A stretch of 64,000 bases of DNA. It comes from a virus. Taxonomy: Duplodnaviria > Caudoviricetes. The DNA is taken from IMG/VR virus record IMGVR_UViG_3300006734_000007, positions 1,907-65,906 of that record. One strand, given 5' to 3'. The notes beneath the pieces were generated by a model. It did not search any database. It saw only the letters and a list, made by a program, of their open reading frames with translations, and was not told the DNA's origin. Below are positions 33,901-45,676 of the stretch, piece by piece; within the stretch, counting starts at the first letter, position 1, and the number at the start of each line of letters is the position of its first letter. Position numbers and translations under genes: made by a program.

Positions 33901-36900
33901 ATCTTCATCTCGTAGAACTCTCATATTATTATATAAGATACCTACATTTCTAACTACTACTGGATCAATAACTATATCATTAGGATTAACTCCTGTAAAT
34001 AACCATTTTAAAAAATTAAGAATTCTTCTAAATATAGAAGCTGTTTGAGGTCGGTTAGTAAGTACTTTCTTACCATCACTCAACATGTATGTTCTGTAAT
34101 CTTCTGCTAAATATTCATCTGCCGCTCTCCATCTGTCATAATTTTTAAGCGCATTTATATCTTTATTATTAGCTTTTGCATATTCTTCCAAGATCTTAGG
34201 ACCCAATGCAGTAGATAGTAATTCTTCATACATCTGCACTTTCTCATCTTGTGTCAAATACAATTGTGTAAATCCGTGATAAGCTTCATGATATAGATCT
34301 GTTTCATCAGCTCCTTTATATAATTTAATACCATTTTTACTCCAACTTGCAAAAGCATTAGAGTTTACAATACTAAATAAATTATCAAAATCTAGTGGTG
34401 AAGTTTTACTAATAGGACTAGATTTAAACCAAGCCATAGCATTTTTTCTTTTCTTTCTATAACCTGGCTTTAGTCTTTCCCATCTAATTCTTTTTAGCTT
34501 AGATTTAAATATTGAGTCATCTTCTGGGTCAAAATTAAAATCTAAATCATCTTCATCAGGTAACTTTTTATTTATATCTGAAGAGTTATTTGGATCAGTA
34601 TAACCGTTAAGTTTATTATTTAAATCATCTAACTTAAGTTCTAAAGATGCAATATACTCATCAAGTTCTGAAAGATCTTCATCAGTAATATCTTCATTAG
34701 ACTCTACTTTTTTTCTTAATCTAAATACAATAGGTAATAGACTCATCAAAAGGGCCCCAGGAGCACCTGGAGTTTCAGCTGGTGTTTCTAATGGAGTTTC
34801 AGAAACTATATTACCTTCTGCAGGAATAATAAGTGCACCACCGGTCCATCCCTCTGGGTTAAATCCTGCCCATTGTTTTGAATCAATAACACCTTCTTTT
34901 GCTTTTGGTTTAGCACTAAATGATCCTACGTCATGATAACCAATAGTAAGATCTCCAGGTTTAAGATTATAAGCTTTTATAATTTCTAAACCTTCCCACT
35001 CAATATTATTTATAGTACCGGCAAAATCTCTAATAATTGTATTACCGTGTACATCATTAAAAATAAATACTACAGATCCTCCGCTAAATCTACTATATCC
35101 ATTTCTATCTTTAAAGATTAAATATGTACCTGAACCATCTTTTTTAACTACTTCTTTAATAGTAGATTTAAATCCTTTAGGTGTTTGTGTTTTACTGAAT
35201 TCAATATCACTAAACTTCATCTGTCTCAATGCAGATACAACAATATCTGAATCAACAAGATCTTTAGCTCTTTTGTATTTTAGATTTACACTACCATCAG
35301 GATTTCTTGTAAATGCCGGAACATAGTCATTGTTTTCTTTAGCTTTTCTTAAGTAAACTTTATTATTTTCATGAGAATATTCTTTATCTGCTGCAACACT
35401 TGCATCTAATAAAAAATGTCCTACACCAATAACACCATTTACTTTAATTCCTTCACCTGGCAAATCTTTTTTAACAGGTGCTGGTATATATCTAAAACCT
35501 TCTGCGTTATCCCACTGACTTCTGTATGACATCAAACTATCTGAAGGATTATAGCTATCAGGCACTGTTCCAATTAGTTGGAAGAATCTATCTACTTTAG
35601 GTGTTTCTTCAATTACAGGAGCAACTTGCTCTTCAACAATTAATGCAGCTTCTTTAATATCAATAAGACCTTTTTTATCTAAATATCTTTTAGCCCACTG
35701 CGCTTGTGTATCAGGTAATAAAGTTTCTACAGAATTTTCTAAACTAAAACTTAAAGATCCATCATTATTAAAACTCCATGATGTTGTTCCTACAGTTACA
35801 GCTCCTGCAATAATTAAAGCCATTATACCTTTAAGAACTTTTTTAATTGCTTTTGCTAAAGCTCCTGGAAAATCTGGTAAAGTATTACCATGGCGTTTTA
35901 TATAATCTTTTACATTTTCAAATAAAATTTGTTTTATTTCTTCATTTGTTCCTTCTACTAAATCTTGATCTGCTTCAATTTCTTTTTTTAATTCTTTAAG
36001 ATCTTCTTCATCAATTACATCATCAATAACCTCTGCAATTTTTTCATCAGTTATTGGTTCTTCAGTAGTTTCTTCTTTAGAAGACTGCTGCTTTCTTTTT
36101 CTTAAATCTTCTCTTAGTTTTTTAGCTTCTTCTAATTCACGTTTTGTTTTATCTATTTCCTCCTGAATTGAGGTTTGTTCTTCGTTTGTATTTCCCGGAT
36201 TAACTTTTGTGCCCCCTTGCCCCTCAACAACACCACTCTCAGGACCAGTCTTAGAATCATCTAACTCTAATCTTGCAACTAAATCAGCTTTATTACCGCT
36301 TACTTTTAATCCTCTCTTAGATAACTCAGCTTTTAATTCAGCTTTAGTTAATGCACTATAACCTGTAGCTTGTGGTTGACCTATCATTTGATAAATAGGA
36401 TTTCCCTCTTTGCCAGGAAGTGTAGATTTCCCTATTATTTTTGCTTCACCACTTTTTACAAGCCTTTTCCATAATGCTTGTGATGCAGGAGTTTGATCAC
36501 TATCTGATTTTAATGGAGATAATCCTTTTGAAATTCTGTCTGAATTTATTTTTCTATATAACTCTGTAGCAATACCTTTACCTCTTAATCCAGGATGTAT
36601 TAATACATTTGATACAGAACCAGCTGGATATAATTTTAATTCTTTTCTAGCAATAATTAAAGCTCCTAATATTTGTCCGTCATAATGAATAACATGTATA
36701 TCTGAATTACTTGTTATACTATTATTTGGATCTAGAAGTTCTCCTGATACTACTTCTAAACCTAATTTTGATTCTTTAGATTCTACACTATTAATAATAT
36801 CTGAAATATCTGATGATTCATCTAAACCAGATTCTCCTAATTTTTTAAGTTCTGAGACTAAATCTCCATCAAATTTTTTACTTTCTATTCTAGTATCAGC

Positions 36901-39471
36901 TTGTGGTTGTCCTTCTACAACAGGTTCATTAGGCGCATCTAATATTTCAGATAGGTTTATATAAATGCGTTCTTCTTCTGAATCAAAATAATTTGGATCT
37001 TTTAGAAATTCAATTGCTGTAAAATTTCCTACTTTATAATTCTTATATGTAGGTTGAGACTTAGTCAATTCTAATCCCTCCATTACATTGCTTCCAAACT
37101 CTACCCACACTCCGGTATTTGATGCAATGATTCCTGTAGGGACTTCACCAAACATGTTTATAATTTTATCTAATAGCTCAGATTTATTTTCAATATTAAC
37201 TGTAAAACCATCTTGATCTAAAACAGCATCACCTCCCGCATAGTTTTTAAAAGTATCATCTACTTCTTTTTCACGGACCATTCTAATAATATCTGCAACT
37301 TCTTCTTTAGTTCTATTTTTAGAAATGCTAGTTACAAATTGACTAGGACGTGTCGCATACTTTTGTGCTTTAGTCCACCATGATTCTTTCTGGCTTTCTC
37401 TGGCTCTTTTTGGATCACCAAATAATTTTAAATTAGCCGGAGCATTATCATACAAATCTGTTAATGTATGCTCAGGAATAGAAAATGAAAAATAACCATT
37501 CAATCCAACAATTGCTCTTTCTGCATTTAATTTTAAAGGAGCTGTTGAATTTTGCATTATGTAATCATAGTAATCAACTTGATCAAACTGTAGACTACCT
37601 GGTTTACTTTTCTCTACATTTAAAGCATAGACAATTCCACTATTAGGTTTAAGTTTGATATTAACTTGACCTGCTTTAGTATTATAAATACTTCCCGGTT
37701 TGTAAGGCTCTGTTAATACATTAATGATCTGCTTGCGGATTTTTTCCTGATTGTTTTCACTTATAATAACATCTTTTCCTTTCTTAACCTTTATAGCAAT
37801 TTCACCGGTTTTATCTTTAACAGAAACAGTGACACTATCCTTACCTGTATAAACTAAACTTCTAAACAATGCAACACGTTGAGTATTGTTCATCTTTTGA
37901 CCACTAATTTTAGCATCAGTAGTTATAATATCTGCTAAATATTCTGCTTCTTCTTGTGTCCAGTTTCTTTGCTGCAGTGGAGCTGATATATTAAAACCTG
38001 GTAATCTTAAATAAATACCACCTTTAACCTCCCAACTGCTTACATCATTATCCGCAACTTTTATTGCAGTACGTGGATCAATATCAGACTGAGCCCAATT
38101 TACCTCAGACATAACAGGTCTTTTATCTTGAGGCATATCTAAATCAAAAGGTGTAATACCTGTATTAGAACTTATAATATTCATTTCTATTACAGAACCT
38201 GGATCAGTCTCTAGTCTTTTTTGTATTAGATACATGATCTCTAATTCTTTTTGCTGCTCAACTGCAATAGCTTCTATTAAACCTTCTTTAGCTTTATTAG
38301 ACAGTTTAGGCCATTCTTTTAAGTTTTTAGATTTAGCAATTTCTTCTGGGCTTTGAATTGCTTTAGCAAAACTAGTTGCATATCCTGTTCCTTTTTGTAC
38401 AACTTTAGATTGATTATAATAAATAGGACTACCCTGAGATGAATCTTTAACAACATTATAGTTTTCATCAAAGAAAAGAATATTGTTATTATTATCCGTA
38501 ATAACTAATTGTGTACCATTTTTATAAAGAGTAAATCCATCTTTCTTAGATGTTGGCGCCCATAATGATTTCTCAGTTGTACCAACTTTACCTCTTAAAG
38601 TTTTTACCTTACGCTTTACTTGATCAGTGTTACCATATTCTTCTACAGCTCTCTTCTCAAAATTATCTACAAATGCTTCTGTAATTTTTACATTAGATTG
38701 CCATGCCCATGCTTTACCATCAAGAAGCTTTCTGTTTCTTTTAGATAGTACATCATTCTTATTATCCATTCCATCAGGATATAATTCTGACATTCTAACA
38801 GCAGCTATCTTAAATCCTTTATGACCTCCTATAGTAATTTTACTTGGATCTTGTTCAGACCTTAGTGCTTTTTTAAATACATCTAAGAATCCATATTCAA
38901 ACTCTTGATCCGGATCTTTAATATCTAAATATTTACCATTGACATCCTGCAAACTTTGCTGACCTGTGCTAGATAGAATAGAAGGTTTCTTAAAACTAAA
39001 TTGCCCAATCTCTTTTACCAACTGTCTAAAAGCTGCAGCAAACTTATTTGATTTTTTTTCACTAGGTGGTTGCTTGTTTGTTTCATCTGATTCAGCAACA
39101 ACCCAATTTGCAATACCTGTATCAATAATCTCAGGATCTGTTATTTCTTCTGTAGTATATGTTTTTAGTACATAATCTAATTCATCAGTTTTATCTGTTA
39201 TTTCAAATAAATCTTGGATGTTAAATTTAGGAGGAAGCAAAGACTTATCATACATAGCAGCTGATATCAACTGATATGGGAGAACTTGTACGTATGATGC
39301 TGCTTTTTTAGGATCTTCTGTTTCATTATAGATATACTCATAAAGTTCCTGAGCAACATCATCAAAATTAAATTCTTGATCGTTAGCCTTAAACTGCTTT
39401 AACTTTGCTGTAGCATATCCAAAAACAATACCTACTTCTTCTGCACTAATTTGTATATTACAAAGGGCCAT
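24961..39471 (-). CDS. virion-packaged single-chain two-barrel RNA polymerase with accessory domains (4836 aa)
   Basis: GVRIPVQ...SGGDFDIDKL catalytic loop (~29188-29325), EGDGQGWI (~30997-31020), zincin HEAYH (~34276-34290). DFDID is the motif of crAss-like phi14:2 gp66-type RNAPs. Confidence 0.92.
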   Translation of the reverse strand: MALCNIQISAEEVGIVFGYATAKLKQFKANDQEFNFDDVAQELYEYIYNETEDPKKAASYVQVLPYQLISAAMYDKSLLPPKFNIQDLFEITDKTDELDYVLKTYTTEEITDPEIIDTGIANWVVAESDETNKQPPSEKKSNKFAAAFRQLVKEIGQFSFKKPSILSSTGQQSLQDVNGKYLDIKDPDQEFEYGFLDVFKKALRSEQDPSKITIGGHKGFKIAAVRMSELYPDGMDNKNDVLSKRNRKLLDGKAWAWQSNVKITEAFVDNFEKRAVEEYGNTDQVKRKVKTLRGKVGTTEKSLWAPTSKKDGFTLYKNGTQLVITDNNNNILFFDENYNVVKDSSQGSPIYYNQSKVVQKGTGYATSFAKAIQSPEEIAKSKNLKEWPKLSNKAKEGLIEAIAVEQQKELEIMYLIQKRLETDPGSVIEMNIISSNTGITPFDLDMPQDKRPVMSEVNWAQSDIDPRTAIKVADNDVSSWEVKGGIYLRLPGFNISAPLQQRNWTQEEAEYLADIITTDAKISGQKMNNTQRVALFRSLVYTGKDSVTVSVKDKTGEIAIKVKKGKDVIISENNQEKIRKQIINVLTEPYKPGSIYNTKAGQVNIKLKPNSGIVYALNVEKSKPGSLQFDQVDYYDYIMQNSTAPLKLNAERAIVGLNGYFSFSIPEHTLTDLYDNAPANLKLFGDPKRARESQKESWWTKAQKYATRPSQFVTSISKNRTKEEVADIIRMVREKEVDDTFKNYAGGDAVLDQDGFTVNIENKSELLDKIINMFGEVPTGIIASNTGVWVEFGSNVMEGLELTKSQPTYKNYKVGNFTAIEFLKDPNYFDSEEERIYINLSEILDAPNEPVVEGQPQADTRIESKKFDGDLVSELKKLGESGLDESSDISDIINSVESKESKLGLEVVSGELLDPNNSITSNSDIHVIHYDGQILGALIIARKELKLYPAGSVSNVLIHPGLRGKGIATELYRKINSDRISKGLSPLKSDSDQTPASQALWKRLVKSGEAKIIGKSTLPGKEGNPIYQMIGQPQATGYSALTKAELKAELSKRGLKVSGNKADLVARLELDDSKTGPESGVVEGQGGTKVNPGNTNEEQTSIQEEIDKTKRELEEAKKLREDLRKRKQQSSKEETTEEPITDEKIAEVIDDVIDEEDLKELKKEIEADQDLVEGTNEEIKQILFENVKDYIKRHGNTLPDFPGALAKAIKKVLKGIMALIIAGAVTVGTTSWSFNNDGSLSFSLENSVETLLPDTQAQWAKRYLDKKGLIDIKEAALIVEEQVAPVIEETPKVDRFFQLIGTVPDSYNPSDSLMSYRSQWDNAEGFRYIPAPVKKDLPGEGIKVNGVIGVGHFLLDASVAADKEYSHENNKVYLRKAKENNDYVPAFTRNPDGSVNLKYKRAKDLVDSDIVVSALRQMKFSDIEFSKTQTPKGFKSTIKEVVKKDGSGTYLIFKDRNGYSRFSGGSVVFIFNDVHGNTIIRDFAGTINNIEWEGLEIIKAYNLKPGDLTIGYHDVGSFSAKPKAKEGVIDSKQWAGFNPEGWTGGALIIPAEGNIVSETPLETPAETPGAPGALLMSLLPIVFRLRKKVESNEDITDEDLSELDEYIASLELKLDDLNNKLNGYTDPNNSSDINKKLPDEDDLDFNFDPEDDSIFKSKLKRIRWERLKPGYRKKRKNAMAWFKSSPISKTSPLDFDNLFSIVNSNAFASWSKNGIKLYKGADETDLYHEAYHGFTQLYLTQDEKVQMYEELLSTALGPKILEEYAKANNKDINALKNYDRWRAADEYLAEDYRTYMLSDGKKVLTNRPQTASIFRRILNFLKWLFTGVNPNDIVIDPVVVRNVGILYNNMRVLRDEDLVIYSPSELNVMPGWGQLNKGIEPLQDGGPTINDADALQISQSIDSIISTVLNEQISLARASKEENKRKVAQMLVGALYTAPDKILPKMYLNVYKTLKDKRKELKEQLDDTADIKQRNKIQHQIKLHDYAIEQFGDVEQILDVITGKSTKGTVAYHLQNSEYIKPAFELSRDELSDFVNTDTPLFSIDTSTISQKDLASAEIKSIIYSAHMRDDKGEFVENIMGYPKLVDPGKAWRTVVSAVKDQSSRRGMRNALLELSKTSPKNKWIEEDLLHKLGPLDVKNPLSHSLWVKFWQSMFMAEKPLYTTTIERVFEPVYKLVDGVRKKTKQKRTTYRVLFGQSQAQFRAAERDFTDHFKTVRNHPFIKLTDNNENVLDVQGIVDKYKNSNFSETGILFLRDLGIPVSNNTKSQQIILDSARLDMLYKKLKDYNDKTKKNKKIKPINDIIAFFRSSDNKLPSESKNLNTIFDAEAKYSGNYSTTALRNAKGDTQYADSRHSSLTRMALYMNESESFHELVAMRQMAHLNPENNPFTKQQINGMHNDSATMAFLNSIYDFSKPDIPKRKGVKINVTSLAGITNLKENGYIDYDYSEKTSNLDSFGRQMNDIYGVLLAGMGQNPTPADKGTIVAVTVTDESGTTKIVTDDIAKFHSHLYIDTVDFLVQETETKTNGEQNFINQMIPFIQMELDVIKAAKENTNNESIIGYTEDKVDKDGNVIEEAAAKDFALFDDIFSDTLKAKLKKATSVQELYDTDLEVSREIDAFLLNYLNSELETLKQRMDGMIYFDSNLMNDHINSAADSKSIELSKVSRPQRADALLKSYLANSTIHRIQVDTIFYGFASQYKDFFKRNPGVNSDGKQLLTDEDAIDYVNERYFGKDAVPTYQNINFPDLKAIPFDGTLRTAVMRETEVTSVYVDRIQEDLEKYYENIFRKRGKKNKKEAAKLAKVAAEEAVKPYRNMEEGDGQGWITIDWYKILSELEGSWTPEQDKLYNAIIKGETIYANQYVQFFPSKKFQYWGPLAKMMGLPAHAFHKYSVAPLVPNVIENTNAEILHNNMVKQQIAIALHLSGSKISTVVDKNTKKASILYNEEDFGKGVRTIDEAPILDLNDPATEYYKANTIHLEYLKNQLDVASKFKRKNTMSSQMRKLVEKGYMEAGVPVDFMPDVDPAKRKTEWDKLEEVEKLAKSQAYTEIIQYENNIQELIDRKKKVLVKSTGWTEEDIKNGTREINKIKSLVDLLKRELKNAGLPTTDLDMIDVNSKGDGLLYDISISPVTPVIEKSLTALINNTLVRQRPNGEMLIQLATTLFEPSKPTDEQKAKHGTNDLEYYQAAREFEGTITTQGDLEKTADVIVRSIDGDHKYIYVKDPRTGEHKHINKDDITLDTKDGERVKGKMYKDSIMIYGEYYAHNTIIDGTGEQADIILVDSMEDAKLQAKAYTERKKTNFTRYEVANNERTIGADAKIAMQGDYYNLLYLTHMDGDPVYVKDEDGNILEKESLVRLNELINDPEWRSLKENLMLITLVGVRIPVQEDNSMEFFHVKQFLPHSEGNILIAPSELVAKSGGDFDIDKLTLLMANISLMHGKPTMVLNSKSVRDEYEIKDDIKSVKKKVKKTHQKFGNRIAKVYKAIGNSTIQPLRDKRDEMSDKVDMYEEGFKQGLVPIDPIKLDQLREEITTLSSQIEFLEKEIKNSDEVKNNPEYQKIIEKRDKALEPLNNKLRKLELELKGKSVKAIENELMIGLWTMLSNPLKYHTLLTPNNADPMKMLAAEMREKKEDRPGAYNSMLSYQRNENGKRKKLSKPSRSSTISPTYNMHIHDVNSEGKAVLGIGAVENAFNTILDRVGAHLNPIYNVSLEAYEIAKEEMQTGKIQAQIDDLENQYPDPESRSKLVKDKLDNLAFMLELYEGDINKAREINIFLPHNTLKYKEYDVVSLSHLYDAFGEESIGRNLSMLIDGWVDVSKDWWIFDVNGNKVIAPTLLFLIEMGVPVKLAVDFVSNPLVEEYRQRLRKAQSALSKANNKNRLKTDKSKEIDYMNLRTQIRKEMLLDYNVINSTQAVKNRDMSIIHDMNNRLKKKLKGKSIDAKTLDKVVKTDPTSSNAAMMDARDLFLHYLEIEEIGQDYKKLKTTLNYDTTKSVTLYEAAKRIEKQEDLYTNTVFPSYIIDAILNESPIGSFDIQRFQLDLWKNVFPLRTSEKILKYILGITGNIKNLSKIKSEFGTEERFANKFLNDLVVYALQKDVLDTDIKEGYKGYEVNISSNLLKDARTNRGVIVNPDSGEILIDKDVLKKQFQSLAFAQSIDQQPLNVLLSRIENFTDKTKKIKLDKDKTAVAEKILEDINYQTLQLAELDSNTFKRNTRGYNQFVKFTIERELLRLNNPLAEFIKTNEFTKRYDRIKDIDSRTDESIDAKKKRQVRQVYEEWLKDTALYNILNMHQLFNSDNSVMHRVKEIINNHPNLLDTYAILESIQYESDSKNNVKYHNIKFRNTKLENNEIDAAITEFRELADPNVMKVLDDSPQGIQENREISKFFEMLPIYAFLQSGMNIDNRFALGRVMPKENLLPFLKKSTDKLAKEIDSPIGLAVLMDFQNQFRQHNKINNANFRNRNLDFITDDVRDWQSIIDQDQFKYEGGYSNKWSDADINVKAADTGKGTKWGDEKDQAMRLKSDAAIVELNVLNRNSSSKTSLEQTGDEKDTIKNKNGVYTGVSFERINGQKSFGDIVMLARNGKLKNTPLSEETRSQIAEANESGARFVVGDMPGVDTQFIEYLLEIGAGFEVFHTGEESRIDVDSLKVDTLFTALEDSYDAEILNMSDTTNLKQIIENNPSKVFVLPGTITGLAMDQNGNTIEGVNNVHVLPVYNAKGDLLIGQQDVIKDVISKSITELIKINDKQPIVFLSVGYAMDHLNASRINDSGQFLVSNLFDELSTQLFDSFIYVNPNSQYISLSDLIEVYQDFSDKQWAVNMENEIDSVLEQIDKC
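36367..36909 (-). repeat. 12-bp direct repeat pair (AGCTTGTGGTTG on +, encoding QPQA) flanking a GNAT domain
   Basis: Identical copies at 36367-36378 and 36898-36909; 14 of 15 nt match when the Gly codon is included. Confidence 0.8.
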
Positions 39472-39472
39472 C

Positions 39473-42400
39473 TTAACATTTCTTTTTAGCTTGTTTACCT
39501 AGATCTTTTAAGGCATCAAGAGGATTATCATACTTATCTGCATACTCTTTCATTTGCTCTGGAGAAAGTTTAATATCAACATTCTCATCTGAAGTATCCT
39601 GTTCTTCAGTAGTAACAGGTTCTACAGGTGCATCTTCTTTCATAGGTACAAGGTTTGTATAAAATTTATCAAGGGTTTCAGTCATTTCTTTATTAGTTTC
39701 TTGGACCTTAAATTTAATAAATTTGGTTTTATTAGTTATCCTTTTAGTTAAGATTTGTATGAGGCCATGTTCTTTATGCATCATAGATATAATCTTATTT
39801 TTAGGAGCTTTATTTATTATATCTTTAATAGAAACAGCAGTCGTCCCTTTTAGTTCTGTTTTTCTTTTAGCAATTAAGTTTGCAACAGCTCCGTCATTAG
39901 TATATCTAGTAACCGGTAAATCTTTGGTTTCTTGAAATATATAATCTTCTATTGCTAACAGTGCCTGTAAAGAATCTGCATTTTTAATTTGATCACCAAA
40001 CTCCTCCATCAAATCTATTGGTTCTATAGCAGTATCTTCTTCTTCAATAAATTCAAATTCAGTTAGAACTAATTGCTTTTCAGGAGATTCTATAAAGTTG
40101 TTTAAAATATTAGGTACTAGATAATTAGTACCATCTATTTGCATAATAGTACTTCCTTTAACTGTATCACCTTCTTCTAGATCTGTTTGTAATCTAAGAA
40201 CTTCAAATAAAAGTTGCATTGATTGTGCTCTATAACTTAAATCTTCATTTATTTGAGATAAGATTGTATTACCATCTTCATCTACTGGATTCAATGTCTT
40301 AAGACTATTTATAAGTTCATCAAAATTTAGACTAGGTTCTAAAACAAAAGTATAGTCATCACCTTGATACCTTACAATTTGCTGAGGGTTTTCTAAATAA
40401 TCTGGAAATAATCTCTCTACTACATCTGGTGTTAATAATATAATTCCTTCATATAGATCTTCTAATAATTCGTCACCTAAAAATAGATCTGTATCTTTAA
40501 TAGGAATTGGTTCAATATCTGATTCTTCTTCTTCTTTTACTTCTGTGCCAAAAATACCTGGAGAAGCTGTTTCAGTTACAGTAGATGGTGTTAGTATTTC
40601 ATTTATAAAAGGCATGTAAGGAAAGTTAGATCCTTGCTGAATTAATCCAGCATAACTAACTTTTGTAATTTGACGATTTTCTTTATCTAAATTAAGATCA
40701 AAAGATGCAATGTTTATATTAGCTCTTACTCCTGTAATGTTCTCAAGCATATTTTTATAACCGGATTGCTGATAACCATGTTGCTCTCTTTTACTAATTC
40801 TTTCGCCAACTATTTTAGCCATGTAACTTGGTTCAGTATAACCTTTGGTTAAGACTATTTCACCTGTACTTCCAACTATTCTATTAATTGCAGGATTTTT
40901 AGAAGATTTAATATCTATTATTTCATATCTCTTTTTAACAGGATCCCAAAATAATAAGTCAATTTCACCACCCACTGGTTGTCCAGTTGGAGGATTTTTA
41001 TCAAATACTAATGGGCCTTCCATTACAAACTCCCATCCCAATGCTTTAATTTCTTCTGCAAAAGCTTCAAATGCTTTTACTAATTGTTTTTTAGCTGTAT
41101 CTGTTAGATCTAGCATTGTTGGTCCTATAGGAATAACAGGTTCTGTAGCAAGTTTAGTTTTTTCAATAGATGTAATATCTGACTTGCCATCAAAAACACC
41201 AACAGTTCCTTTTATAACATCATTAAGAGGTTGAATCTTATCTCGATTATTTTTAATTTCTTCATTACTTTGAAAAGGTTTAACTCCTTCCGCCGTGCTA
41301 AGAGTAATATGAGGAAATTCATTTTTAGATAATGGATTATCTACAAGTAATACATCTACTTTATCTGTAGTAAGTCTTCCAACTACTCTAATTTCCATTT
41401 CTTGACCGATAGGTAGATCTGAAACATCTGAAGGTTTAAATTCAATTGTAGAATGATGAGAAAATAAATTTGCAAGAGCTTGTCCGTAAGCTGCAACTAA
41501 CTCATCAGTATTAAAAAAGATTCCACTATATACTACAGGACCTTGATAACTAGTAGTAGTTTCAGGAACTCCTTCAAAAAACTCTTTACCAAATGCATCT
41601 AATGTGTTACCTGCAAATGCATTATCTTCATACTCAGTTAGATCAAACTCAGATTCTTTTATTTGTACAACTGATCCATCTTCTAACTTAACTTCCCAAA
41701 CTGGTTCTGCAGTTTGATCTTCTAAATCTGCTAATTCATCTCCTAAAATACCATCTTGACCAGTTGCTTTAATCCTAACTTTATTTCCTGTTCTAGGATC
41801 CATTTCCATACCAATAATAGATGTCATACTTGTACTACGGACCCACTTTCCATTTACTTTAATAAAGTAACCGTGATCTGTAGTTTTAACACCAAACTCT
41901 AAAGCTTCTTCATCAGTCATACTACTGATCTGCTTTATTTCAGTACCCTGAACTCTCTTTAGTTTTTTATGTCCCTCAGATTTTGAAACACCTGAAAAAG
42001 GCATTGATATATCTTCATCAGTAGGTTTTTCTTCTGTAGGATCAATATCTTCTTTCTTTTTTCTGCCTCCTTTTTTTTGTCCTTTTCTTTGTTTAACTTG
42101 TTCATTATGATCATCAATTAAAAGTAAAACATCATCTGGTCTACTTTCAATCCATTCATCTATGTTAGCAAATCTATCAGGATTATTTTTCTGAAACTTA
42201 GCAAACAATAATTCTGCCTGCTGTTGTATAGTATCTGGCCAGGTTAATCTATTGCTTAAACCATCACTATCTAGCAGAGTTAATATTTCATCTACCGTTT
42301 TTTTCTTTTTTTGTTTTCTTTTTGCTTCTCGTTCTTGCTTTTCTCTTTCTAAAGAAGCTTCTCTATTTGCTTTATCAAAAGCTTCAAAGGTTTCAAACCC

Positions 42401-45400
42401 AGACTCTGCAGCAAAATCTTCTATATATGCTGAAACTAATTTAGCAGGCTTTGAATACCTCTGATCTTCTTTACGGATCTTAACAAAAGTACCATCATCT
42501 TTTTTTAGTATAAAATACTCTGGTAAATCTAATTCATCAAATACAGATCTTAATCCTTCATCATCTAGGAACATATTAAGTTTAGATAGTTCAAATATTA
42601 ATTGACTACTTTTAACTTTTTCTAAAGCTGCATTATAATGTTTTTTTGATAATTCTTGATTAGCTTGATATTGTTGAGCTCTAACCATTTCTCTTCTTGC
42701 ATGCCATTCAACATAAGTATCAGGATTAGATAAGTATCTTAAAACTGCTCCATACATTTTAGCATCATTATCAAGTTCAATTGAATCTTTATACATTTTA
42801 AAGATCTCATCTACTTGATCTTGACTTATACGGTATTTTCTCATTTTACCAGAAGGCATGTTTAATGACTCTCCTACTAAATAATTAATATATTTATTGA
42901 ATGCTCCGTATAATCCTTTTAGTGCTTTCTTTTGTTGTTTTTCTTGCTCTTCTGTATATCTTGCAGTTTTACCAATTTCTTTATCAAAGTAAGAATCTTC
43001 TTCAGCAATAGTAGCCTGATAACCTTCTACTGCTTCTCGTAAACTATTTAAAAGCTCTTTCTTTTTTTCTAATCTTTTTTTATCAGCCTTTTCTTCTTTA
43101 GATAATACTGCTCCGGCTTTTTCTTTATCATTAATTGCAATTAACTCTTGAGACAAAATAGTATCTTCTTGTCTTATATCTTCTAAAGATAAAATATTAC
43201 GAATATCATTTTCTTCAACAACTTCTAAAAAATTAAAATTGTCAATAATATTTTTATGTATTTTAAGTCTTCTATTAACTGCTTCATTAAATGTTGTATT
43301 ACCAAGTGCAACAGTTTTTATAAAATCTTTATGTGCTTGATGTTTAATTTGTCTATCAATGTATTCTGGATTTAAATAAGGCATTCCGTTTTTATCAAGA
43401 AGCATGGTAGGTACTGCGTTAGGATCATATGGTGCACCCCAAGTGTCATAAGCTTTTTCTATATTATAAACTGCATCAGAAATTCTTTTCTTCATAGATT
43501 TTATAGAATCCCTAGCTTCTTCAATAGTATCATGGTTTGTACCCATGGCTTCATTGAATTCTTCTACTGTAAAATCTTCTTCTAAGATCTCATCTAAGTA
43601 GTTTAAGAATTCTTCATGTCCACCTTTTTCATATAGATTAAACATGTGTTCATTAACTGCTTCATTTCTAGCATCAATAGCTCCTTTTTCATCACCTTCT
43701 AATGTTGCTTCAATAGCTTCATTTGCTAAATTTTTTACTGTAGTTGCATGTTCTATTGGTGAATTAAAAAATCTAAATGGATCAGCTGTATAAGCATTGT
43801 AGGCATCTACATCTTCTTGAGCTTTTTTCTCCATACGAGTTTTATACTCTTCATAAGTTTCATTATTAAAAGTTCTATCAGTATAATTACGTAACATTTT
43901 AATAGGTGTAGTTACTGCGCTTATTACTCCACTAGCCATTCCTCCCATTAAAAATCCTGAAGCAAATATTTCAAAACCTTGCGGGCTTGTATATTTTTTT
44001 AAATTACTACCAAGATGAGAAATAAAGTCTCCAAACTCTGGGCTTTTATATCTTTCACCTTTCTCATATAACTTAAAGTAATGATCTAAATATCCTTCAG
44101 CTGCAGTATCACCTACAATTTCTTGATACAATTCTTGACCACCTTCTAACAATCCTCCTTGTGCTAAAGAATACTTTCCAAATCTATTAAAAGATTTAGC
44201 TATACCTGATTTCCATTTTTTTGGTGTAACAATAGTAGTTCCTATATCTGATAATTTTTGTCTTGCAGTTTTTTTAGCTACAACTTTAGCTTTAGAAAAA
44301 GGTGTAGCAACAGCTTTATATAATGGATTTTCAGAGATTAATTTTTTAGTAACTCCTGTATTCATACCTACTCTCATTGCCAAAGGCTTTAAGAATGCAG
44401 TTCTTAATATCAAACCGTTTGTTGCTAAAATAATAGGAACGTTTGCAAAAGCTGTTGATTGTGCAGCTTCATGTGAAGTAGTTATTAAATCATCAAGTGC
44501 TTCTTGTGTAATAGGTTTACCAGACTTTTCTAATTCTTCAAGTCCTTCTTTCATTACTCTATTTTGAACTAAACCTGCTTCTAATTGGCCTTCTGCCAAT
44601 GCTGCAGTTGCAACTTTAGTATCAAAATATAAAGCGGGAAAAGTCTTATGATTGTATCTTAATATATCATATGGAGTTCTAACATTCTTAGCAAATGCTT
44701 TAGCAGTACTAGGTGCAACAAGTTTACCAGGTTTTTCAATAACCCATTTTGTTCCATCCCATACTTTTTGATTTACATTTTGCCAAATCTTTCTAAGTTT
44801 ATTTGGTTGTCTAAATTGACTTAAATAAGACTCATAACCTATTGTGCTTAATTTACCGGCCTTATCTAATTTAGGTAATGTTTTTAATCCTTTAGCAGCA
44901 CCCGTAAATACTAACTTAGGATTTTTTCGTATATCATCTACTATAGATGTGCCCATTCCGGCCATCATACCTAGAGATAATCCTACTTGCATAAAAGTAT
45001 TACCTAAAAACGGTGCAGCAAAATTAGACCACTTATTATTTTTTTGAGACATTCTCATTTTAGTGATCTCTTCAAATCTTTCTGCATTCTTTGCTTGAGA
45101 CCAATCAGAAAGTTGTAAATCAGCATCTAAATAATTATTCCAACCAAGTACAGCAACATCTTTAAATCCACCAACAGATCTCATAAAATCACCAAATGTA
45201 CTTCCGTATGTATTATAAATAGCATCATTATCTCTAAAAGGACTATAACCAAGCTTGTCATAATCCATATGTAATTTATATCTTTCTAAAGGTTGTATTG
45301 TTTTACTATCTAGAAGATTTATACTTCTAGTTGACATGCCTCCAAAAATATTATCATACTCTTGACCCCATTCAATTCCAGCATTGTTAAAATTATTTAA

Positions 45401-45664
45401 TCTGTCTAATGCAGAATTACCTGTAGGTAAATTATAAGTTGAAAAAGTTTTTGGTAAAAAATTTTGAGGATCAATATCTTTAAATCCAAAATGTCCATCT
45501 TGCATTGCTTTTTGAAGCAACATCATATCAGAAACAGTACCACGATTATTAATGATATTATTAATAGATTGTCCTGCAACAACATTTAAATCTGGTGTTT
45601 TATTTAAATTAGATTCAGAACTTTTAAAAACATCAGGTTGAGGATTTACATTAGGATCTGCCAT
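39473..45664 (-). CDS. giant ejected protein (2063 aa) with membrane segments, PD-(D/E)xK nuclease and 2H phosphoesterase domains
   Basis: Gly-rich TM-like segments (VGLSLGMMAGMG, FASGFLMGGMASGVI), EGGQELYQ, HHSTI...PHITL, GEIDLL...IIDIKS...QQSGY. Confidence 0.8.
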   Translation of the reverse strand: MADPNVNPQPDVFKSSESNLNKTPDLNVVAGQSINNIINNRGTVSDMMLLQKAMQDGHFGFKDIDPQNFLPKTFSTYNLPTGNSALDRLNNFNNAGIEWGQEYDNIFGGMSTRSINLLDSKTIQPLERYKLHMDYDKLGYSPFRDNDAIYNTYGSTFGDFMRSVGGFKDVAVLGWNNYLDADLQLSDWSQAKNAERFEEITKMRMSQKNNKWSNFAAPFLGNTFMQVGLSLGMMAGMGTSIVDDIRKNPKLVFTGAAKGLKTLPKLDKAGKLSTIGYESYLSQFRQPNKLRKIWQNVNQKVWDGTKWVIEKPGKLVAPSTAKAFAKNVRTPYDILRYNHKTFPALYFDTKVATAALAEGQLEAGLVQNRVMKEGLEELEKSGKPITQEALDDLITTSHEAAQSTAFANVPIILATNGLILRTAFLKPLAMRVGMNTGVTKKLISENPLYKAVATPFSKAKVVAKKTARQKLSDIGTTIVTPKKWKSGIAKSFNRFGKYSLAQGGLLEGGQELYQEIVGDTAAEGYLDHYFKLYEKGERYKSPEFGDFISHLGSNLKKYTSPQGFEIFASGFLMGGMASGVISAVTTPIKMLRNYTDRTFNNETYEEYKTRMEKKAQEDVDAYNAYTADPFRFFNSPIEHATTVKNLANEAIEATLEGDEKGAIDARNEAVNEHMFNLYEKGGHEEFLNYLDEILEEDFTVEEFNEAMGTNHDTIEEARDSIKSMKKRISDAVYNIEKAYDTWGAPYDPNAVPTMLLDKNGMPYLNPEYIDRQIKHQAHKDFIKTVALGNTTFNEAVNRRLKIHKNIIDNFNFLEVVEENDIRNILSLEDIRQEDTILSQELIAINDKEKAGAVLSKEEKADKKRLEKKKELLNSLREAVEGYQATIAEEDSYFDKEIGKTARYTEEQEKQQKKALKGLYGAFNKYINYLVGESLNMPSGKMRKYRISQDQVDEIFKMYKDSIELDNDAKMYGAVLRYLSNPDTYVEWHARREMVRAQQYQANQELSKKHYNAALEKVKSSQLIFELSKLNMFLDDEGLRSVFDELDLPEYFILKKDDGTFVKIRKEDQRYSKPAKLVSAYIEDFAAESGFETFEAFDKANREASLEREKQEREAKRKQKKKKTVDEILTLLDSDGLSNRLTWPDTIQQQAELLFAKFQKNNPDRFANIDEWIESRPDDVLLLIDDHNEQVKQRKGQKKGGRKKKEDIDPTEEKPTDEDISMPFSGVSKSEGHKKLKRVQGTEIKQISSMTDEEALEFGVKTTDHGYFIKVNGKWVRSTSMTSIIGMEMDPRTGNKVRIKATGQDGILGDELADLEDQTAEPVWEVKLEDGSVVQIKESEFDLTEYEDNAFAGNTLDAFGKEFFEGVPETTTSYQGPVVYSGIFFNTDELVAAYGQALANLFSHHSTIEFKPSDVSDLPIGQEMEIRVVGRLTTDKVDVLLVDNPLSKNEFPHITLSTAEGVKPFQSNEEIKNNRDKIQPLNDVIKGTVGVFDGKSDITSIEKTKLATEPVIPIGPTMLDLTDTAKKQLVKAFEAFAEEIKALGWEFVMEGPLVFDKNPPTGQPVGGEIDLLFWDPVKKRYEIIDIKSSKNPAINRIVGSTGEIVLTKGYTEPSYMAKIVGERISKREQHGYQQSGYKNMLENITGVRANINIASFDLNLDKENRQITKVSYAGLIQQGSNFPYMPFINEILTPSTVTETASPGIFGTEVKEEEESDIEPIPIKDTDLFLGDELLEDLYEGIILLTPDVVERLFPDYLENPQQIVRYQGDDYTFVLEPSLNFDELINSLKTLNPVDEDGNTILSQINEDLSYRAQSMQLLFEVLRLQTDLEEGDTVKGSTIMQIDGTNYLVPNILNNFIESPEKQLVLTEFEFIEEEDTAIEPIDLMEEFGDQIKNADSLQALLAIEDYIFQETKDLPVTRYTNDGAVANLIAKRKTELKGTTAVSIKDIINKAPKNKIISMMHKEHGLIQILTKRITNKTKFIKFKVQETNKEMTETLDKFYTNLVPMKEDAPVEPVTTEEQDTSDENVDIKLSPEQMKEYADKYDNPLDALKDLGKQAKKKC

Positions 45665-45676
45665 AATAATAAATTG

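What the first reader, a model, noticed from the sequence alone, without database searches (positions are those of the whole stretch)
40740..41840. 2H phosphoesterase nested inside a split PD-(D/E)xK nuclease in an ejected protein: candidate injected anti-signalling enzyme
Seen, in protein order: STSMTSII (nuclease N-terminal motif); an SH3/KOW-like insert (GNKVRIKATG...WEVKLEDG...SEFDL, ~41640-41792); GNTLDAFGKEFF; a ~118-aa domain with two intact HxT motifs (HHSTIEF ~41440-41458, PHITLS ~41297-41314); then the rest of the nuclease (EGPLV...GEIDLL...IIDIKS...QQSGY). Established: paired HxT/S motifs define 2H phosphoesterases, which include tRNA-ligase cyclic phosphodiesterases and the T4 anti-CBASS enzyme Acb1. 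Inference: an enzyme that degrades cyclic nucleotides or heals 2',3'-cyclic-phosphate RNA ends is delivered with the DNA, before any phage transcription, using a nuclease loop as its insertion site.
Basis: partly seen in the sequence, partly recalled or inferred. Interest (0 to 1): 0.85.

Follow-up and report, generated by a model that had tools for sequence, protein, structure and literature searches.

The report
Cyclic-phosphate esterase nested inside phage nuclease
A giant protein of an uncultured crAss-like phage carries a small, widely travelling cyclic-phosphate-opening enzyme module dropped into a surface loop of a DNA-cutting domain; both parts, and the idea that such enzymes are injected with the phage DNA, were already described, so this is a well-supported new example, not a new kind.

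Summary
Residues 1377-1499 of the 2063-aa protein (window 39473-45664, minus strand) fold with high confidence (pLDDT 91) as a 2H phosphoesterase. Its nearest solved structures are the CNPase catalytic domain (Z 12.2) and the fungal tRNA-ligase CPD domain (Z 11.4). Acb1 scores only Z 5.6-6.1.

The flanking halves fold together as a RecB/RecE/MGME1-like PD-(D/E)xK nuclease that carries a KOW/Tudor-like subdomain. Only 2 of 23 nuclease-bearing orthologues have the insert.

The module is promiscuous. It has 461 representative relatives, found alone or at any position in giant proteins alongside ART-PolyVal, LPD23, GNAT and NTase domains. That makes it the 2H domain of "polyvalent proteins" published in 2017. 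A PDDEXK domain in crAss transcription-block giants was published in 2021.

Delivery with the virion is inferred from synteny and from a cysteine pattern; it is not shown. A CPD-type activity on 2',3'-cyclic phosphates is better supported than Acb1-like destruction of signals.

This scan has met the same module before in other marine crAss-like phages.

Noticed in passing: the giants carry cysteines only at their termini. This held for 48 of 48 complete orthologues and 44 of 44 downstream giants.

The parts
39473..45664 (-). Gene for the 2063-aa giant protein (P0001). It lies directly upstream of the 4836-aa RNAP giant.
   Evidence: ORF list and translation. 57 IMG/VR loci encode relatives of its N-terminal ~1000 residues. 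There is no Pfam or PHROG family apart from a weak tRNA_lig_CPD hit.
41576..41881 (-). N-terminal part of the PD-(D/E)xK nuclease domain (residues 1262-1363). It includes the S/T-rich strand (STSMTSII) and the motif I helix with invariant G1352 and D1356 (41597-41611).
   Evidence: G114 and D118 of P0002 are invariant in 21 sequences. Helix 105-127 of the model is confident. RecB-family matches span both halves.
41636..41803 (-). KOW/Tudor/SH3-like beta-barrel subdomain (residues 1288-1343) inside the nuclease N-part.
   Evidence: Model residues 50-105 match NusG/Spt5 KOW and Tudor domains at Z 7-8, rmsd 1-2.3 A. It is present in the 6 closest orthologues; the 17 IMG/VR orthologues have a different, longer segment here.
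41114..41575 (-). Lineage-specific insert (residues 1364-1517): N-linker, 2H module, C-linker.
   Evidence: It aligns to a gap in P0103, P0115, P0118, P0154 and 15 IMG/VR orthologues. BLAST shows 18-45 residues in its place in the four metagenomic orthologues.
41168..41536 (-). Mini 2H phosphoesterase module (residues 1377-1499). Catalytic motifs are H1404-S-T1406 (41447-41455) and H1452-I-T1454 (41303-41311).
   Evidence: HMM E 8.5e-47. pLDDT 91.1. CNPase Z 12.2 and Trl1 CPD Z 11.4. H46, T48, H94 and T96 are nearly invariant in 60 sequences. The module boundaries come from BLAST to modules in unrelated proteins.
40601..41113 (-). C-terminal part of the nuclease (residues 1518-1688): helix, then the core sheet with D1569 (40958-40960), D1584-I-K1586 (40907-40915) and Q1632..Y1636 (40757-40771).
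   Evidence: D331, D346 and K348 of P0002 are invariant, and Q394 and Y398 nearly invariant, in 21 sequences. Block pLDDT is 83-96 through the core strands and helix. Fold matches.
39476..39478 (-). Codon of the only cysteine of the protein, its last residue (C2063).
   Evidence: A Cys lies within the last 9 residues in 48 of 48 complete orthologues.
24961..39471 (-). Context: the 4836-aa giant with the crAss-type RNA polymerase catalytic region. Its only cysteines are C4 and the last residue, C4836.
   Evidence: tblastn of residues 2900-3700 hits 'RNAP catalytic subunit' genes of crAssphages, Bacteroides crass-phages and Cellulophaga phages in 65 records. Cys positions.
61169..63898 (-). Context: crassvirus muzzle-protein homologue. 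It marks the start of the tail/cargo block.
   Evidence: Pfam crAss_MUZ, E 7.6e-10, 38 bits against a cut-off of 27.

Best explanation
Residues 1377-1499 are a compact (about 120 aa) two-histidine phosphoesterase of the CNPase / tRNA-ligase-CPD type. It is a mobile protein module that occurs alone and at arbitrary positions in hundreds of giant multi-enzyme ('polyvalent') phage proteins. In this phage lineage it was acquired recently. It was dropped, with short linkers, into the exposed loop between the motif I helix and the next helix of a RecB/RecE-like PD-(D/E)xK nuclease domain. The orthologues carry that nuclease uninterrupted.

Shown: the fold, the insertion and its lineage specificity. 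Both enzymes also keep every catalytic residue.

Inferred, step 1: the host protein is one of the three giants of the virion-RNA-polymerase block, so it is packed in the capsid and ejected ahead of or with the DNA.

Inferred, step 2: the module hydrolyses 2',3'-cyclic phosphates to 2'-phosphates. The substrate would be RNA ends left by metal-independent host RNases, or free 2',3'-cyclic nucleotides. It would act before any phage gene is expressed.

Inferred, step 3: the nuclease loop is only a permissive landing site, not a functional coupling, because related phages carry the same module in the neighbouring giants instead.
For: Fold: pLDDT 91.1. CNPase Z 11.0-12.2 at rmsd 2.1-2.5 A over 117-123 residues; fungal Trl1 kinase-CPD (6u05, residues 642-832) Z 11.4; RICH Z 9.1; then a gap down to Z 6.1 or less for every other 2H enzyme (the independent wide search gives 11.7 against 5.8 or less). 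In BFVD the best matches are giant-virus Trl1-like RNA ligases, E 1.8e-5 and 2.3e-5.

Sequence: tRNA_lig_CPD is the only Pfam hit. The window's domain scores 18.2 bits, below the cut-off of 23. The 123-aa cyanophage relative P0003 scores 34 bits, and 12 of 54 mid-size relatives hit at E<=1e-3. The second motif (HITLSTAEGVKPFQ) aligns to the CNPase stretch HVTLGCAADVQPVQ, though at non-significant E values.

Polynucleotide-end context: 2 of 54 mid-size relatives fuse the module to an AAA_33 kinase. In P0057 that kinase matches the kinase part of bacterial Pnkp at E 9e-14.

Mobility: 461 representatives at E<=1e-3. Of the best 150, 62 are under 211 aa, 54 are 211-1300 aa and 34 are longer, with the module at any position.

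Polyvalent context: ART-PolyVal in 12 of the 73 relatives scanned, plus LPD23, GNAT, NTase, NADAR, SLOG and HD.

Recent gain: the module is 66-71% identical to modules in unrelated proteins, while the scaffold is 24-29% identical to its orthologues. 2 of 23 nuclease-bearing proteins have the insert.

Module elsewhere in the same gene block: the syntenic locus L030 has it at residues 298-415 of the RNAP giant. P0013, an orthologue of the window's 2572-aa giant, has it at 119-240. P0062 and P0068 share the RNAP motif region and have it near the N-terminus.

Cargo inference: the muzzle gene and the RNAP giant flank the block. In PhiCrAss001, three RNAP-associated giants were detected in virions by mass spectrometry (PMC10172136, passages read). 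The three window giants have 4 Cys in 9471 residues, all at the termini, against 0.91% Cys in the replication-side ORFs.
Against: No assay exists for any member of this mini-2H family, so the substrate is inferred from fold rank alone.

The window domain's own Pfam score is below the gathering cut-off.

No RNA ligase, Tpt1/KptA or polynucleotide kinase family appeared in the 25 window ORFs or in the 73 relatives scanned, apart from the 2 kinase fusions. This echoes the published remark that polyvalent-type 2H domains never associate with RNA ligases, and it weakens a classical repair pathway.

The commonest partners are ADP-ribosyltransferases, which would fit a nucleotide or ADP-ribose-derivative substrate equally well.

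Packaging is unproven. The N-terminal 1200 residues match none of 50,697 GenBank phage records, no solved chain, and not p-crAssphage gp45 (hhalign probability 2%).

The held genome is a single 65.9-kb contig, so missing genes could lie elsewhere.

In the whole-domain model the 2H part itself was low-confidence, because only 2 sequences covered it. The relative placement of the two active sites is therefore unknown.
Confidence: 0.6

Rival explanations
1. Acb1-like anti-signalling enzyme. The injected 2H module cleaves cyclic di- or oligonucleotide second messengers (CBASS, type III CRISPR) or 2'-5' oligoadenylate-like signals before they activate effectors.
For: 2H enzymes include Acb1 and viral 2',5'-phosphodiesterases, and all of these appear among the structural matches (Acb1 Z 5.6-6.1, rotavirus VP3 5.2-5.9, MHV ns2 4.3). 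The prediction is in print for polyvalent-type 2H domains (PMC5512222 section 20; PMC9503650). No RNA ligase partner was found in the window or in the 73 relatives scanned. Partners such as ART, NADAR, SLOG and NTase belong to nucleotide/NAD conflict systems.
Against: The module sits with CNPase, RICH and Trl1-CPD (Z 9.1-12.2), with a gap of at least 3 Z units (5 or more from CNPase and Trl1-CPD) to Acb1 and the 2',5'-phosphodiesterases. Acb1 entries in BFVD appear only from rank 15, at E 0.012 or weaker. To my knowledge (recalled, not from a call), CNPase- and Trl1-type enzymes are known to open 2',3'-cyclic phosphates, not 3'-5' or 2'-5' diesters. Two relatives are fused to a Pnkp-like polynucleotide kinase.
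Confidence: 0.2
2. Offensive RNase. The module acts like Usb1/Mpn1, cutting or trimming host RNA and leaving cyclic-phosphate ends, as one of several host-damaging activities of the giant protein.
For: This was proposed for polyvalent-type 2H domains because of their MuF and portal fusions, which parallel those of RNase (PBECR) domains. Usb1 structures are among the matches (Z 3.6-4.8). The module sits inside a nuclease domain.
Against: The Usb1 matches are no better than generic 2H matches and lie far below CNPase and Trl1-CPD. No RNA-binding extension is evident in a 120-aa module. The insertion into the nuclease is lineage-specific, so the pairing is not conserved.
Confidence: 0.07
3. Not a cargo enzyme. 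The 2063-aa protein stays in the infected cell as a transcription- or replication-associated factor. The nuclease and 2H domains would then process phage nucleic acids late in infection.
For: There is no proteomic evidence for this phage. No detectable homology to proven crassvirus cargo proteins. The literature calls such proteins 'associated with transcription' on gene-order grounds only (PMC7886860).
Against: The gene lies in one co-oriented block between the muzzle gene and the RNAP giant. In PhiCrAss001 all three RNAP-associated giants are virion proteins. The extreme cysteine depletion, with one terminal Cys conserved in 48 of 48 orthologues, is matched by an N-terminal Cys in 44 of 44 downstream giants. 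That is hard to explain for a purely cytoplasmic protein.
Confidence: 0.12

Closest known systems
2H phosphoesterase domains of phage polyvalent proteins and their solo phage counterparts (Iyer, Burroughs, Anand, de Souza, Aravind 2017, PMC5512222; Iyer et al. 2022, PMC9503650)
   Same: The superfamily is the same. The module occurs alone and inside giant multi-domain phage proteins with ART-PolyVal, LPD and GNAT partners. No RNA-ligase partner was found, as those authors also reported. The proposed logic of delivery with the virion is the same.
   Different: Here the host is a crAss-like phage protein of the virion-RNAP block, and the module is nested inside another enzyme domain instead of being strung between domains. 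No paper in the searched library pairs 'crAss-like' with '2H phosphoesterase'. I could not see the papers' figures or supplements, so I cannot say whether this exact mini family was among theirs.
CNPase catalytic domain, RICH, and the CPD domain of fungal tRNA ligase Trl1
   Same: These are the nearest solved folds: Z 12.2, 9.1 and 11.4, at rmsd 2.1-3.3 A over about 120 residues. They share two HxT motifs and an extended second motif resembling H-[IV]-T-L-x-x-A-x-x-V-x-P. Some relatives have a polynucleotide-kinase partner.
   Different: The module is only about 120 residues, against about 190-215. About 48 residues separate the two His, so most of the helical decoration is missing. The window's domain is below the Pfam PF08302 cut-off. 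In the kinase fusions the order is 2H then kinase. No ligase is present.
Acb1 (phage anti-CBASS 2H nuclease)
   Same: It is a small phage-encoded 2H enzyme of similar size, with a shared superfamily fold (Z 5.6-6.1).
   Different: It is a much weaker structural match than CNPase or Trl1-CPD, and there is no sequence match. Acb1 is a free-standing early protein; this module is embedded in a giant late-block protein.
[quoted passage not shown] 2021, PMC7886860; review PMC10136315)
   Same: A PD-(D/E)xK nuclease embedded in a giant protein next to the RNAP gene of a crAss-like phage.
   Different: Those papers' main texts mention no phosphoesterase or polyvalent proteins. Whether the gut-phage domain is orthologous to this one was not tested. 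Here the domain is interrupted by the 2H module and carries a KOW/Tudor-like barrel.
RecB-family nucleases without an Fe-S cluster (RecE, MGME1, AddA/AdnA nuclease domains)
   Same: The fold matches (Z 9.3-10.5 over 173-184 aligned residues). The motif set matches: G-x-x-x-D helix, D, D-x-K, Q-x-x-x-Y.
   Different: There is no helicase partner. It has two nested inserts, the KOW-like barrel and the 2H module. The domain has no cysteine, so it is not the Cas4/AddB Fe-S type.

Membership tests
2H phosphoesterase superfamily | Two H-x-T/S motifs | tested here: met
   H1404-S-T1406 and H1452-I-T1454. The corresponding columns are at least 90% conserved in 60 family members.
2H phosphoesterase superfamily | Bilobed 2H fold with each HxT on a central strand | tested here: met
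   pLDDT 91.1, and both motifs start strands (E46-51, E94-99). At least 20 distinct solved 2H enzymes are matched, with CNPase at Z 12.2.
2H phosphoesterase superfamily | The two histidines juxtaposed across the active-site cleft | not testable with these tools
   Model coordinates are not exposed. This is implied only by the 2.1-2.5 A superposition on CNPase over 117-123 residues.
2H phosphoesterase superfamily | Metal-independent phosphoesterase activity that depends on both His | not testable with these tools
   Needs an enzyme assay.
CNPase / RICH / Trl1-CPD clade | Nearest structural neighbours, clearly separated from other 2H clades | tested here: met
   Z 9.1-12.2 for CNPase, RICH and 6u05, against 6.1 or less for drCPDase, Acb1, plant CPDase, VP3 and LigT. 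The BFVD top matches are Trl1-like RNA ligases of giant viruses.
Pfam PF08302 tRNA_lig_CPD | Score at or above the gathering cut-off (23 bits) | tested here: inconclusive
   The window's domain scores 15.2-18.2 bits, covering only 26 residues around the second motif. The relative P0003 scores 34 bits, and 12 of 54 relatives hit at E<=1e-3. I do not file the domain under this Pfam family.
Acb1 family | Closest relationship to Acb1 by fold or sequence | tested here: inconclusive
   Z 5.6-6.1, tied with generic 2H matches. BFVD Acb1 entries score E 0.012-0.1. No sequence hit.
PD-(D/E)xK nuclease, RecB-like branch | Catalytic D ... (D/E)-x-K plus Q-x-x-x-Y and an N-terminal acidic helix | tested here: met
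   D1356, D1569, D1584 and K1586 are invariant, and Q1632 and Y1636 nearly invariant, in 21 sequences.
PD-(D/E)xK nuclease, RecB-like branch | Restriction-endonuclease-like core fold formed by both halves | tested here: met
   MGME1 Z 10.5, RecE 10.2, 3l0a 9.9, AddA 9.8, Cas4 9.3, Dna2 9.2, all spanning model residues about 33-450. Foldseek gives AdnAB, 3l0a, ACE1, RecE and Exo5.
Cas4 / AddB subgroup | Four-cysteine Fe-S cluster | tested here: not met
   There are 0 cysteines in residues 1239-1688.
Polyvalent proteins (Iyer et al. 2017) | Several unrelated effector domains in one large polypeptide of a phage or conjugative element | tested here: met
   A nuclease, a KOW-like barrel and a 2H module in a 2063-aa phage protein. 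Relatives of the module carry ART-PolyVal and LPD23.
Polyvalent proteins (Iyer et al. 2017) | Packaged in the virion and delivered into the host | not testable with these tools
   Only indirect evidence: gene order, the PhiCrAss001 analogy and the terminal-Cys pattern.
Crassvirus RNAP-associated cargo proteins (PhiCrAss001 gp47/gp49/gp50; p-crAssphage gp45) | Sequence homology to a characterised member | tested here: not met
   tblastn of residues 1-1200 against 50,697 phage records gave no match. The profile against PDB sequences gave none. hhalign against gp45 gave probability 2%. The protein is a positional counterpart only.

The most novel reading that the evidence does not exclude
The CPD-type module is delivered before any phage transcription, as part of a chain of three cargo giants joined head to tail by terminal disulfides (2063-aa C2063 to C4 of the 4836-aa RNAP giant, and its C4836 to C5 of the 2572-aa giant). 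There it would act as a ligase-independent countermeasure. It would convert the 2',3'-cyclic phosphates made by host HEPN or anticodon nucleases, or 2',3'-cyclic-phosphate nucleotides, into 2'-phosphates. That would either disarm a signal or change which host repair enzymes can use the ends. Nesting it in the nuclease could also bring a DNA/RNA-cutting site and an end-processing site onto one substrate.
Probability: 0.15. Interest if true: 0.65.

Novelty: new member of a known kind. Interest (0 to 1): 0.3.

Why it matters
No counter-defence or RNA-repair enzyme of a crAss-like phage has been characterised in the papers I read. This protein gives a concrete, small, easily expressed candidate: about 120 residues and two predicted catalytic histidines.

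The module is the minimal core of the CNPase / tRNA-ligase-CPD branch of 2H enzymes, and it is spread through hundreds of phage protein clusters. One assay would therefore annotate a large family. It would also decide between the two published guesses for polyvalent-type 2H domains, RNA ends or immune nucleotides.

The nested architecture shows that the loop after the first nuclease helix tolerates a whole foreign domain. It also shows that the giants of the RNAP block exchange enzyme cassettes.

As a discovery it is incremental. Both components and the concept are already in print, and this scan has already met the same module in other marine crAss-like phages.

Tried and rejected
Sequence-only searches gave little.
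- PHROGs found no family for the protein or the domain.
- phmmer against PDB sequences found nothing for P0002, for the 4836-aa giant or for the orthologue profile.
- NCBIfam gave nothing meaningful for the domain.
- The word-indexed protein search on residues 1505-1700 returned only the 94%-identical P0005.

A profile of the 2H family against PDB sequences put a fimbrial assembly protein first (3r4r, E 1.6e-4). No HxT motif aligns there, so I treat it as spurious. The 16 CNPase rows in that search have E 0.65-1.7 and are not significant by themselves.

A mixed alignment for folding the whole region (A4) stacked the nuclease core of the orthologues onto the 2H segment, so I discarded it. A local test with the orthologue regions cut into N and C pieces also misaligned. 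The alignment without solo 2H sequences (A5) was correct and was the one used. The price was a low-confidence 2H segment in that model, so I cannot say how the two domains sit relative to each other.

An intron or intein origin of the insert is rejected. The frame is continuous, Rfam found no family in 39000-46000 at E<=0.1, and the roughly 100 nt beyond the module are too few for a ribozyme core (my inference).

No composition break was seen (GC 0.29-0.35 across 40400-42200). No convincing direct repeats lie at the junctions; there are only 10-15-nt imperfect pairs of the kind expected in AT-rich DNA. A conserved in-frame DNA joint, as reported by an earlier agent for another cassette, was therefore not found here.

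Homology of the host protein to p-crAssphage gp45 was tested and not found.

A paper search for the Burkholderia phage BCSR5 phosphodiesterase (PDB 9q2y) found nothing. Two searches for a description of terminal cysteines in crassvirus cargo proteins found nothing relevant. mostly matched Crassostrea and Neurospora crassa. This is not proof that the feature is unpublished.

The extended data tables of PMC10172136 and the figures of PMC7886860 and PMC5512222 may bear on whether these domains were already annotated in crassviruses.

Complex prediction, sequencing-run tools and the protein-atlas search were not used.


Full report
**What is there.** The finding lies in one minus-strand ORF, window 39473-45664, which encodes 2063 residues (P0001).

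In protein order the region reads as follows:
- an S/T-rich strand (STSMTSII, residues 1277-1284);
- a beta-rich segment (1288-1343);
- a helix with GNTLDAFGKEFF (1352-1363);
- a segment with HHSTIEF (1403-1409) and PHITLS (1451-1456);
- GEIDLL (1566-1571), IIDIKS (1582-1587) and QQSGY (1632-1636).

**The HxT segment is a 2H phosphoesterase of the CNPase / tRNA-ligase-CPD type.** By sequence alone the evidence is thin. Pfam gives only a sub-threshold tRNA_lig_CPD hit (15-18 bits against a cut-off of 23). PHROGs, NCBIfam and PDB sequences give nothing.

The exhaustive search of 1.84 billion representatives changed the picture. It found 461 proteins at E<=1e-3, and almost all of them match only residues 138-262 of the 450-residue query, which is the HxT segment.

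An alignment of the window's segment with 59 short relatives shows nearly invariant H46, T48, G62, G71, P93, H94, I95, T96 and P105. With that alignment AlphaFold2 gave mean pLDDT 91.1 and pTM 0.82.

Fold comparison gave these results:
- Foldseek's printed matches were all CNPase or RICH, plus the fungal tRNA-ligase kinase-CPD.
- The Foldseek-independent search gave CNPase Z 11.7 (rmsd 2.3 A over 120 residues). It was followed by about twenty other 2H enzymes at Z 3.4-5.8.
- The second look gave CNPase Z 11.0-12.2, Trl1 kinase-CPD (6u05, residues 642-832) Z 11.4 and RICH 9.1. Then came a gap down to Z 6.1 or less for drCPDase, Acb1, plant CPDase and rotavirus VP3.
- Among predicted viral structures the best matches are Trl1-like 'RNA ligases' of giant viruses (E about 2e-5). 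Acb1 entries start at rank 15, with E 0.012.

A 123-aa stand-alone relative in Synechococcus phage B23 passes the Pfam tRNA_lig_CPD cut-off (34 bits). It aligns with both HxT motifs of the window's domain. I could not measure the His-His distance, because model coordinates are not exposed.

**The flanks are one nuclease.** Four metagenomic orthologues (1923-2043 aa, 24-29% identical overall) match the query in two pieces. The gap between the pieces is 18-45 residues in them and about 155 residues in the window protein.

A scan of IMG/VR found 57 loci encoding relatives. An HMM of the C-terminal nuclease half hits the orthologue in 17 of them, and none of those carries the 2H module there.

An alignment of 21 sequences has invariant G1352, D1356, G1566, D1569, D1584 and K1586, and nearly invariant Q1632 and Y1636 (the tool gives them in P0002 numbering: G114, D118, G328, D331, D346, K348, Q394, Y398). 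Folding the 450-residue region with that alignment gave confident nuclease halves and, as expected, a low-confidence 2H segment, which only 2 sequences covered.

The model is matched over residues about 33-450 by MGME1 (Z 10.5), RecE (10.2), a putative exonuclease (3l0a, 9.9), AddA (9.8), Cas4 (9.3), AdnA (9.3) and Dna2 (9.2). Residues 50-105 are matched by KOW, Tudor and SH3-like barrels at Z 7-8. Foldseek agrees.

The domain has no cysteine, so it is not the Fe-S type of Cas4 or AddB.

The insert sits between the motif I helix and the next helix. It comprises residues 1364-1517 (window 41114-41575). The module proper is 1377-1499 (41168-41536), as judged from where similarity to modules in unrelated proteins stops.

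**The insert is a recent gain of a mobile module.** Only P0001 and its 94%-identical relative P0005 combine the nuclease and the 2H module. That is 2 of 23 nuclease-bearing proteins, counting two near-duplicate pairs among the loci.

The module is 66-71% identical to modules in unrelated proteins, while the scaffold is 24-29% identical to its orthologues.

Of the best 150 hits, 62 are under 211 aa, 54 are 211-1300 aa and 34 are longer, up to 7041 aa. The module lies at N-terminal, central or C-terminal positions.

Related phages carry it in the neighbouring giants:
- In the syntenic locus L030 it lies at residues 298-415 of the RNAP giant.
- P0013 is an orthologue of the window's 2572-aa giant and has it at 119-240.
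- P0062 and P0068 share the RNAP catalytic region and have it near the N-terminus.

I saw no composition break, no convincing junction repeats and no RNA family hit that would suggest an intron.

**What the module keeps company with.** Pfam scans covered 54 mid-size and 19 large relatives. They found ART-PolyVal in 12, LPD23 in 3 and GNAT in 2. NTase, PARP-like, NADAR, circularly permuted SLOG, RadC, HD, an EcoRI-type methylase and others appeared once each.

This is the repertoire of 'polyvalent proteins'. The 2017 paper that defined them has a section on their 2H domains, which I read whole. It states three things:
- they occur in polyvalent proteins and alone in phages;
- they were never seen with RNA ligases;
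- they may act as RNases or may degrade nucleotide signals of host defence.

A 2022 paper repeats the idea that head-packaged 2H domains counter (oligo)nucleotide signalling; I read passages of it.

I also found no RNA ligase among the 73 relatives or the 25 window ORFs. However, 2 of the 54 are 2H-kinase fusions. The kinase of P0057 matches the kinase module of bacterial Pnkp at E 9e-14. That points to polynucleotide ends for at least part of the family.

**Context and the cargo inference.** The held genome is one 65.9-kb contig. The minus-strand block runs in this order:
- a muzzle-protein homologue (61169-63898; crAss_MUZ, 38 bits against a cut-off of 27);
- four large genes;
- P0001;
- a 4836-aa giant whose central region matches the RNAP catalytic subunit of crAssphages, Bacteroides crass-phages and Cellulophaga phages (65 records);
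- a 2572-aa giant.

In PhiCrAss001, mass spectrometry detected three RNAP-associated giants in virions (passages read).

Direct homology of P0001 to characterised crassvirus proteins was not found. Packaging is therefore an inference.

**A pattern seen in passing that bears on packaging.** The three giants have 4 cysteines in 9471 residues (0.042%). The 18 plus-strand ORFs have 49 in 5364 (0.91%), giving a binomial P of about 5e-32.

All four cysteines are terminal:
- the last residue of P0001;
- residue 4 and the last residue of the RNAP giant;
- residue 5 of the third giant.

In the IMG/VR loci, 48 of 48 complete orthologues have a Cys within their last 9 residues, and in 44 of those it is the only Cys. 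In addition, 44 of 44 downstream giants have a Cys within the first 8 residues. Eight further ORFs run off the locus end and were set aside, and one locus gave no ORF.

p-crAssphage shows the same pairing, gp45 C1956 of 1957 and gp44 C3, along with a few internal cysteines.

Crassvirus virions are known to contain structural disulfides. A head-to-tail disulfide chain of cargo giants is therefore a testable idea. The pattern is also hard to reconcile with a purely cytoplasmic life for these proteins.

**Verdict.**
The domain is a real 2H enzyme with every catalytic residue intact, nested in a nuclease.
- Its nearest relatives are 2',3'-cyclic phosphodiesterases of the CNPase/Trl1 type, not Acb1.
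- Delivery with the virion is plausible but unproven.
- Both components and the concept are published. Earlier agents of this scan reported the same module in other marine crAss-like phages.
- I file it as a new member of a known kind, with modest interest. The terminal-cysteine rule deserves a follow-up of its own.

Noticed in passing
window 39476-39478 (C2063 of the 2063-aa protein), 39460-39462 and 24964-24966 (C4 and C4836 of the 4836-aa protein), 24942-24944 (C5 of the 2572-aa protein); loci L002-L058; L059: The three giants carry cysteines only at their termini. They have 4 Cys in 9471 residues, against 0.91% Cys in the plus-strand ORFs. Each gene junction reads ...K-C-stop followed by M-A-L-(N)-C. 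In relatives, 48 of 48 complete orthologues have a Cys in the last 9 residues (the sole Cys in 44), and 44 of 44 downstream giants have a Cys within residues 3-8. p-crAssphage gp45 and gp44 show the same pairing. This suggests head-to-tail disulfide linkage of cargo giants in the virion. Two literature searches found no description of it.
   Followed up: partly
L030:14550-23807 (residues 298-415); proteins P0013, P0032, P0062, P0068: In related phages the same 2H module sits in the RNAP giant or in the third giant, not in the P0001 orthologue. The three giants of the block therefore exchange or independently acquire this cassette.
   Followed up: partly
proteins P0057 (302 aa) and P0008 (574 aa): These are fusions of the mini 2H module to a polynucleotide-kinase-like P-loop domain. 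P0057 has just those two domains; P0008 (574 aa) has further sequence with no Pfam match. The kinase hits AAA_33, and in P0057 it matches the kinase part of bacterial Pnkp at E 9e-14. The arrangement is a reversed-order analogue of the kinase-CPD cassette of CNPase and Trl1.
   Followed up: partly
window 42065-45664 (residues 1-1200 of the 2063-aa protein): The N-terminal ~1000 residues are conserved in 57 IMG/VR loci, with many invariant residues across six orthologues. They have no Pfam, PHROG or PDB match and no tblastn match in 50,697 GenBank phage records, so this is an unnamed family.
   Followed up: no
L005, L006, L019, L023, L025, L051, L052: In these loci the orthologue ORF runs on to the locus end (up to about 3600 residues), with no cysteine where the gene junction would be. 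They may be natural fusions of the P0001 orthologue with the RNAP giant. That would fit the idea that terminal cysteines replace a peptide link where the genes are split.
   Followed up: no
window 41636-41803 versus L003, L020, L027, L036, L045, L046, L048: The KOW/Tudor-like barrel between the first nuclease strand and the motif I helix is confined to the six closest orthologues. The IMG/VR orthologues have a longer, different segment at the same place. The nuclease therefore has two permissive insertion sites.
   Followed up: no
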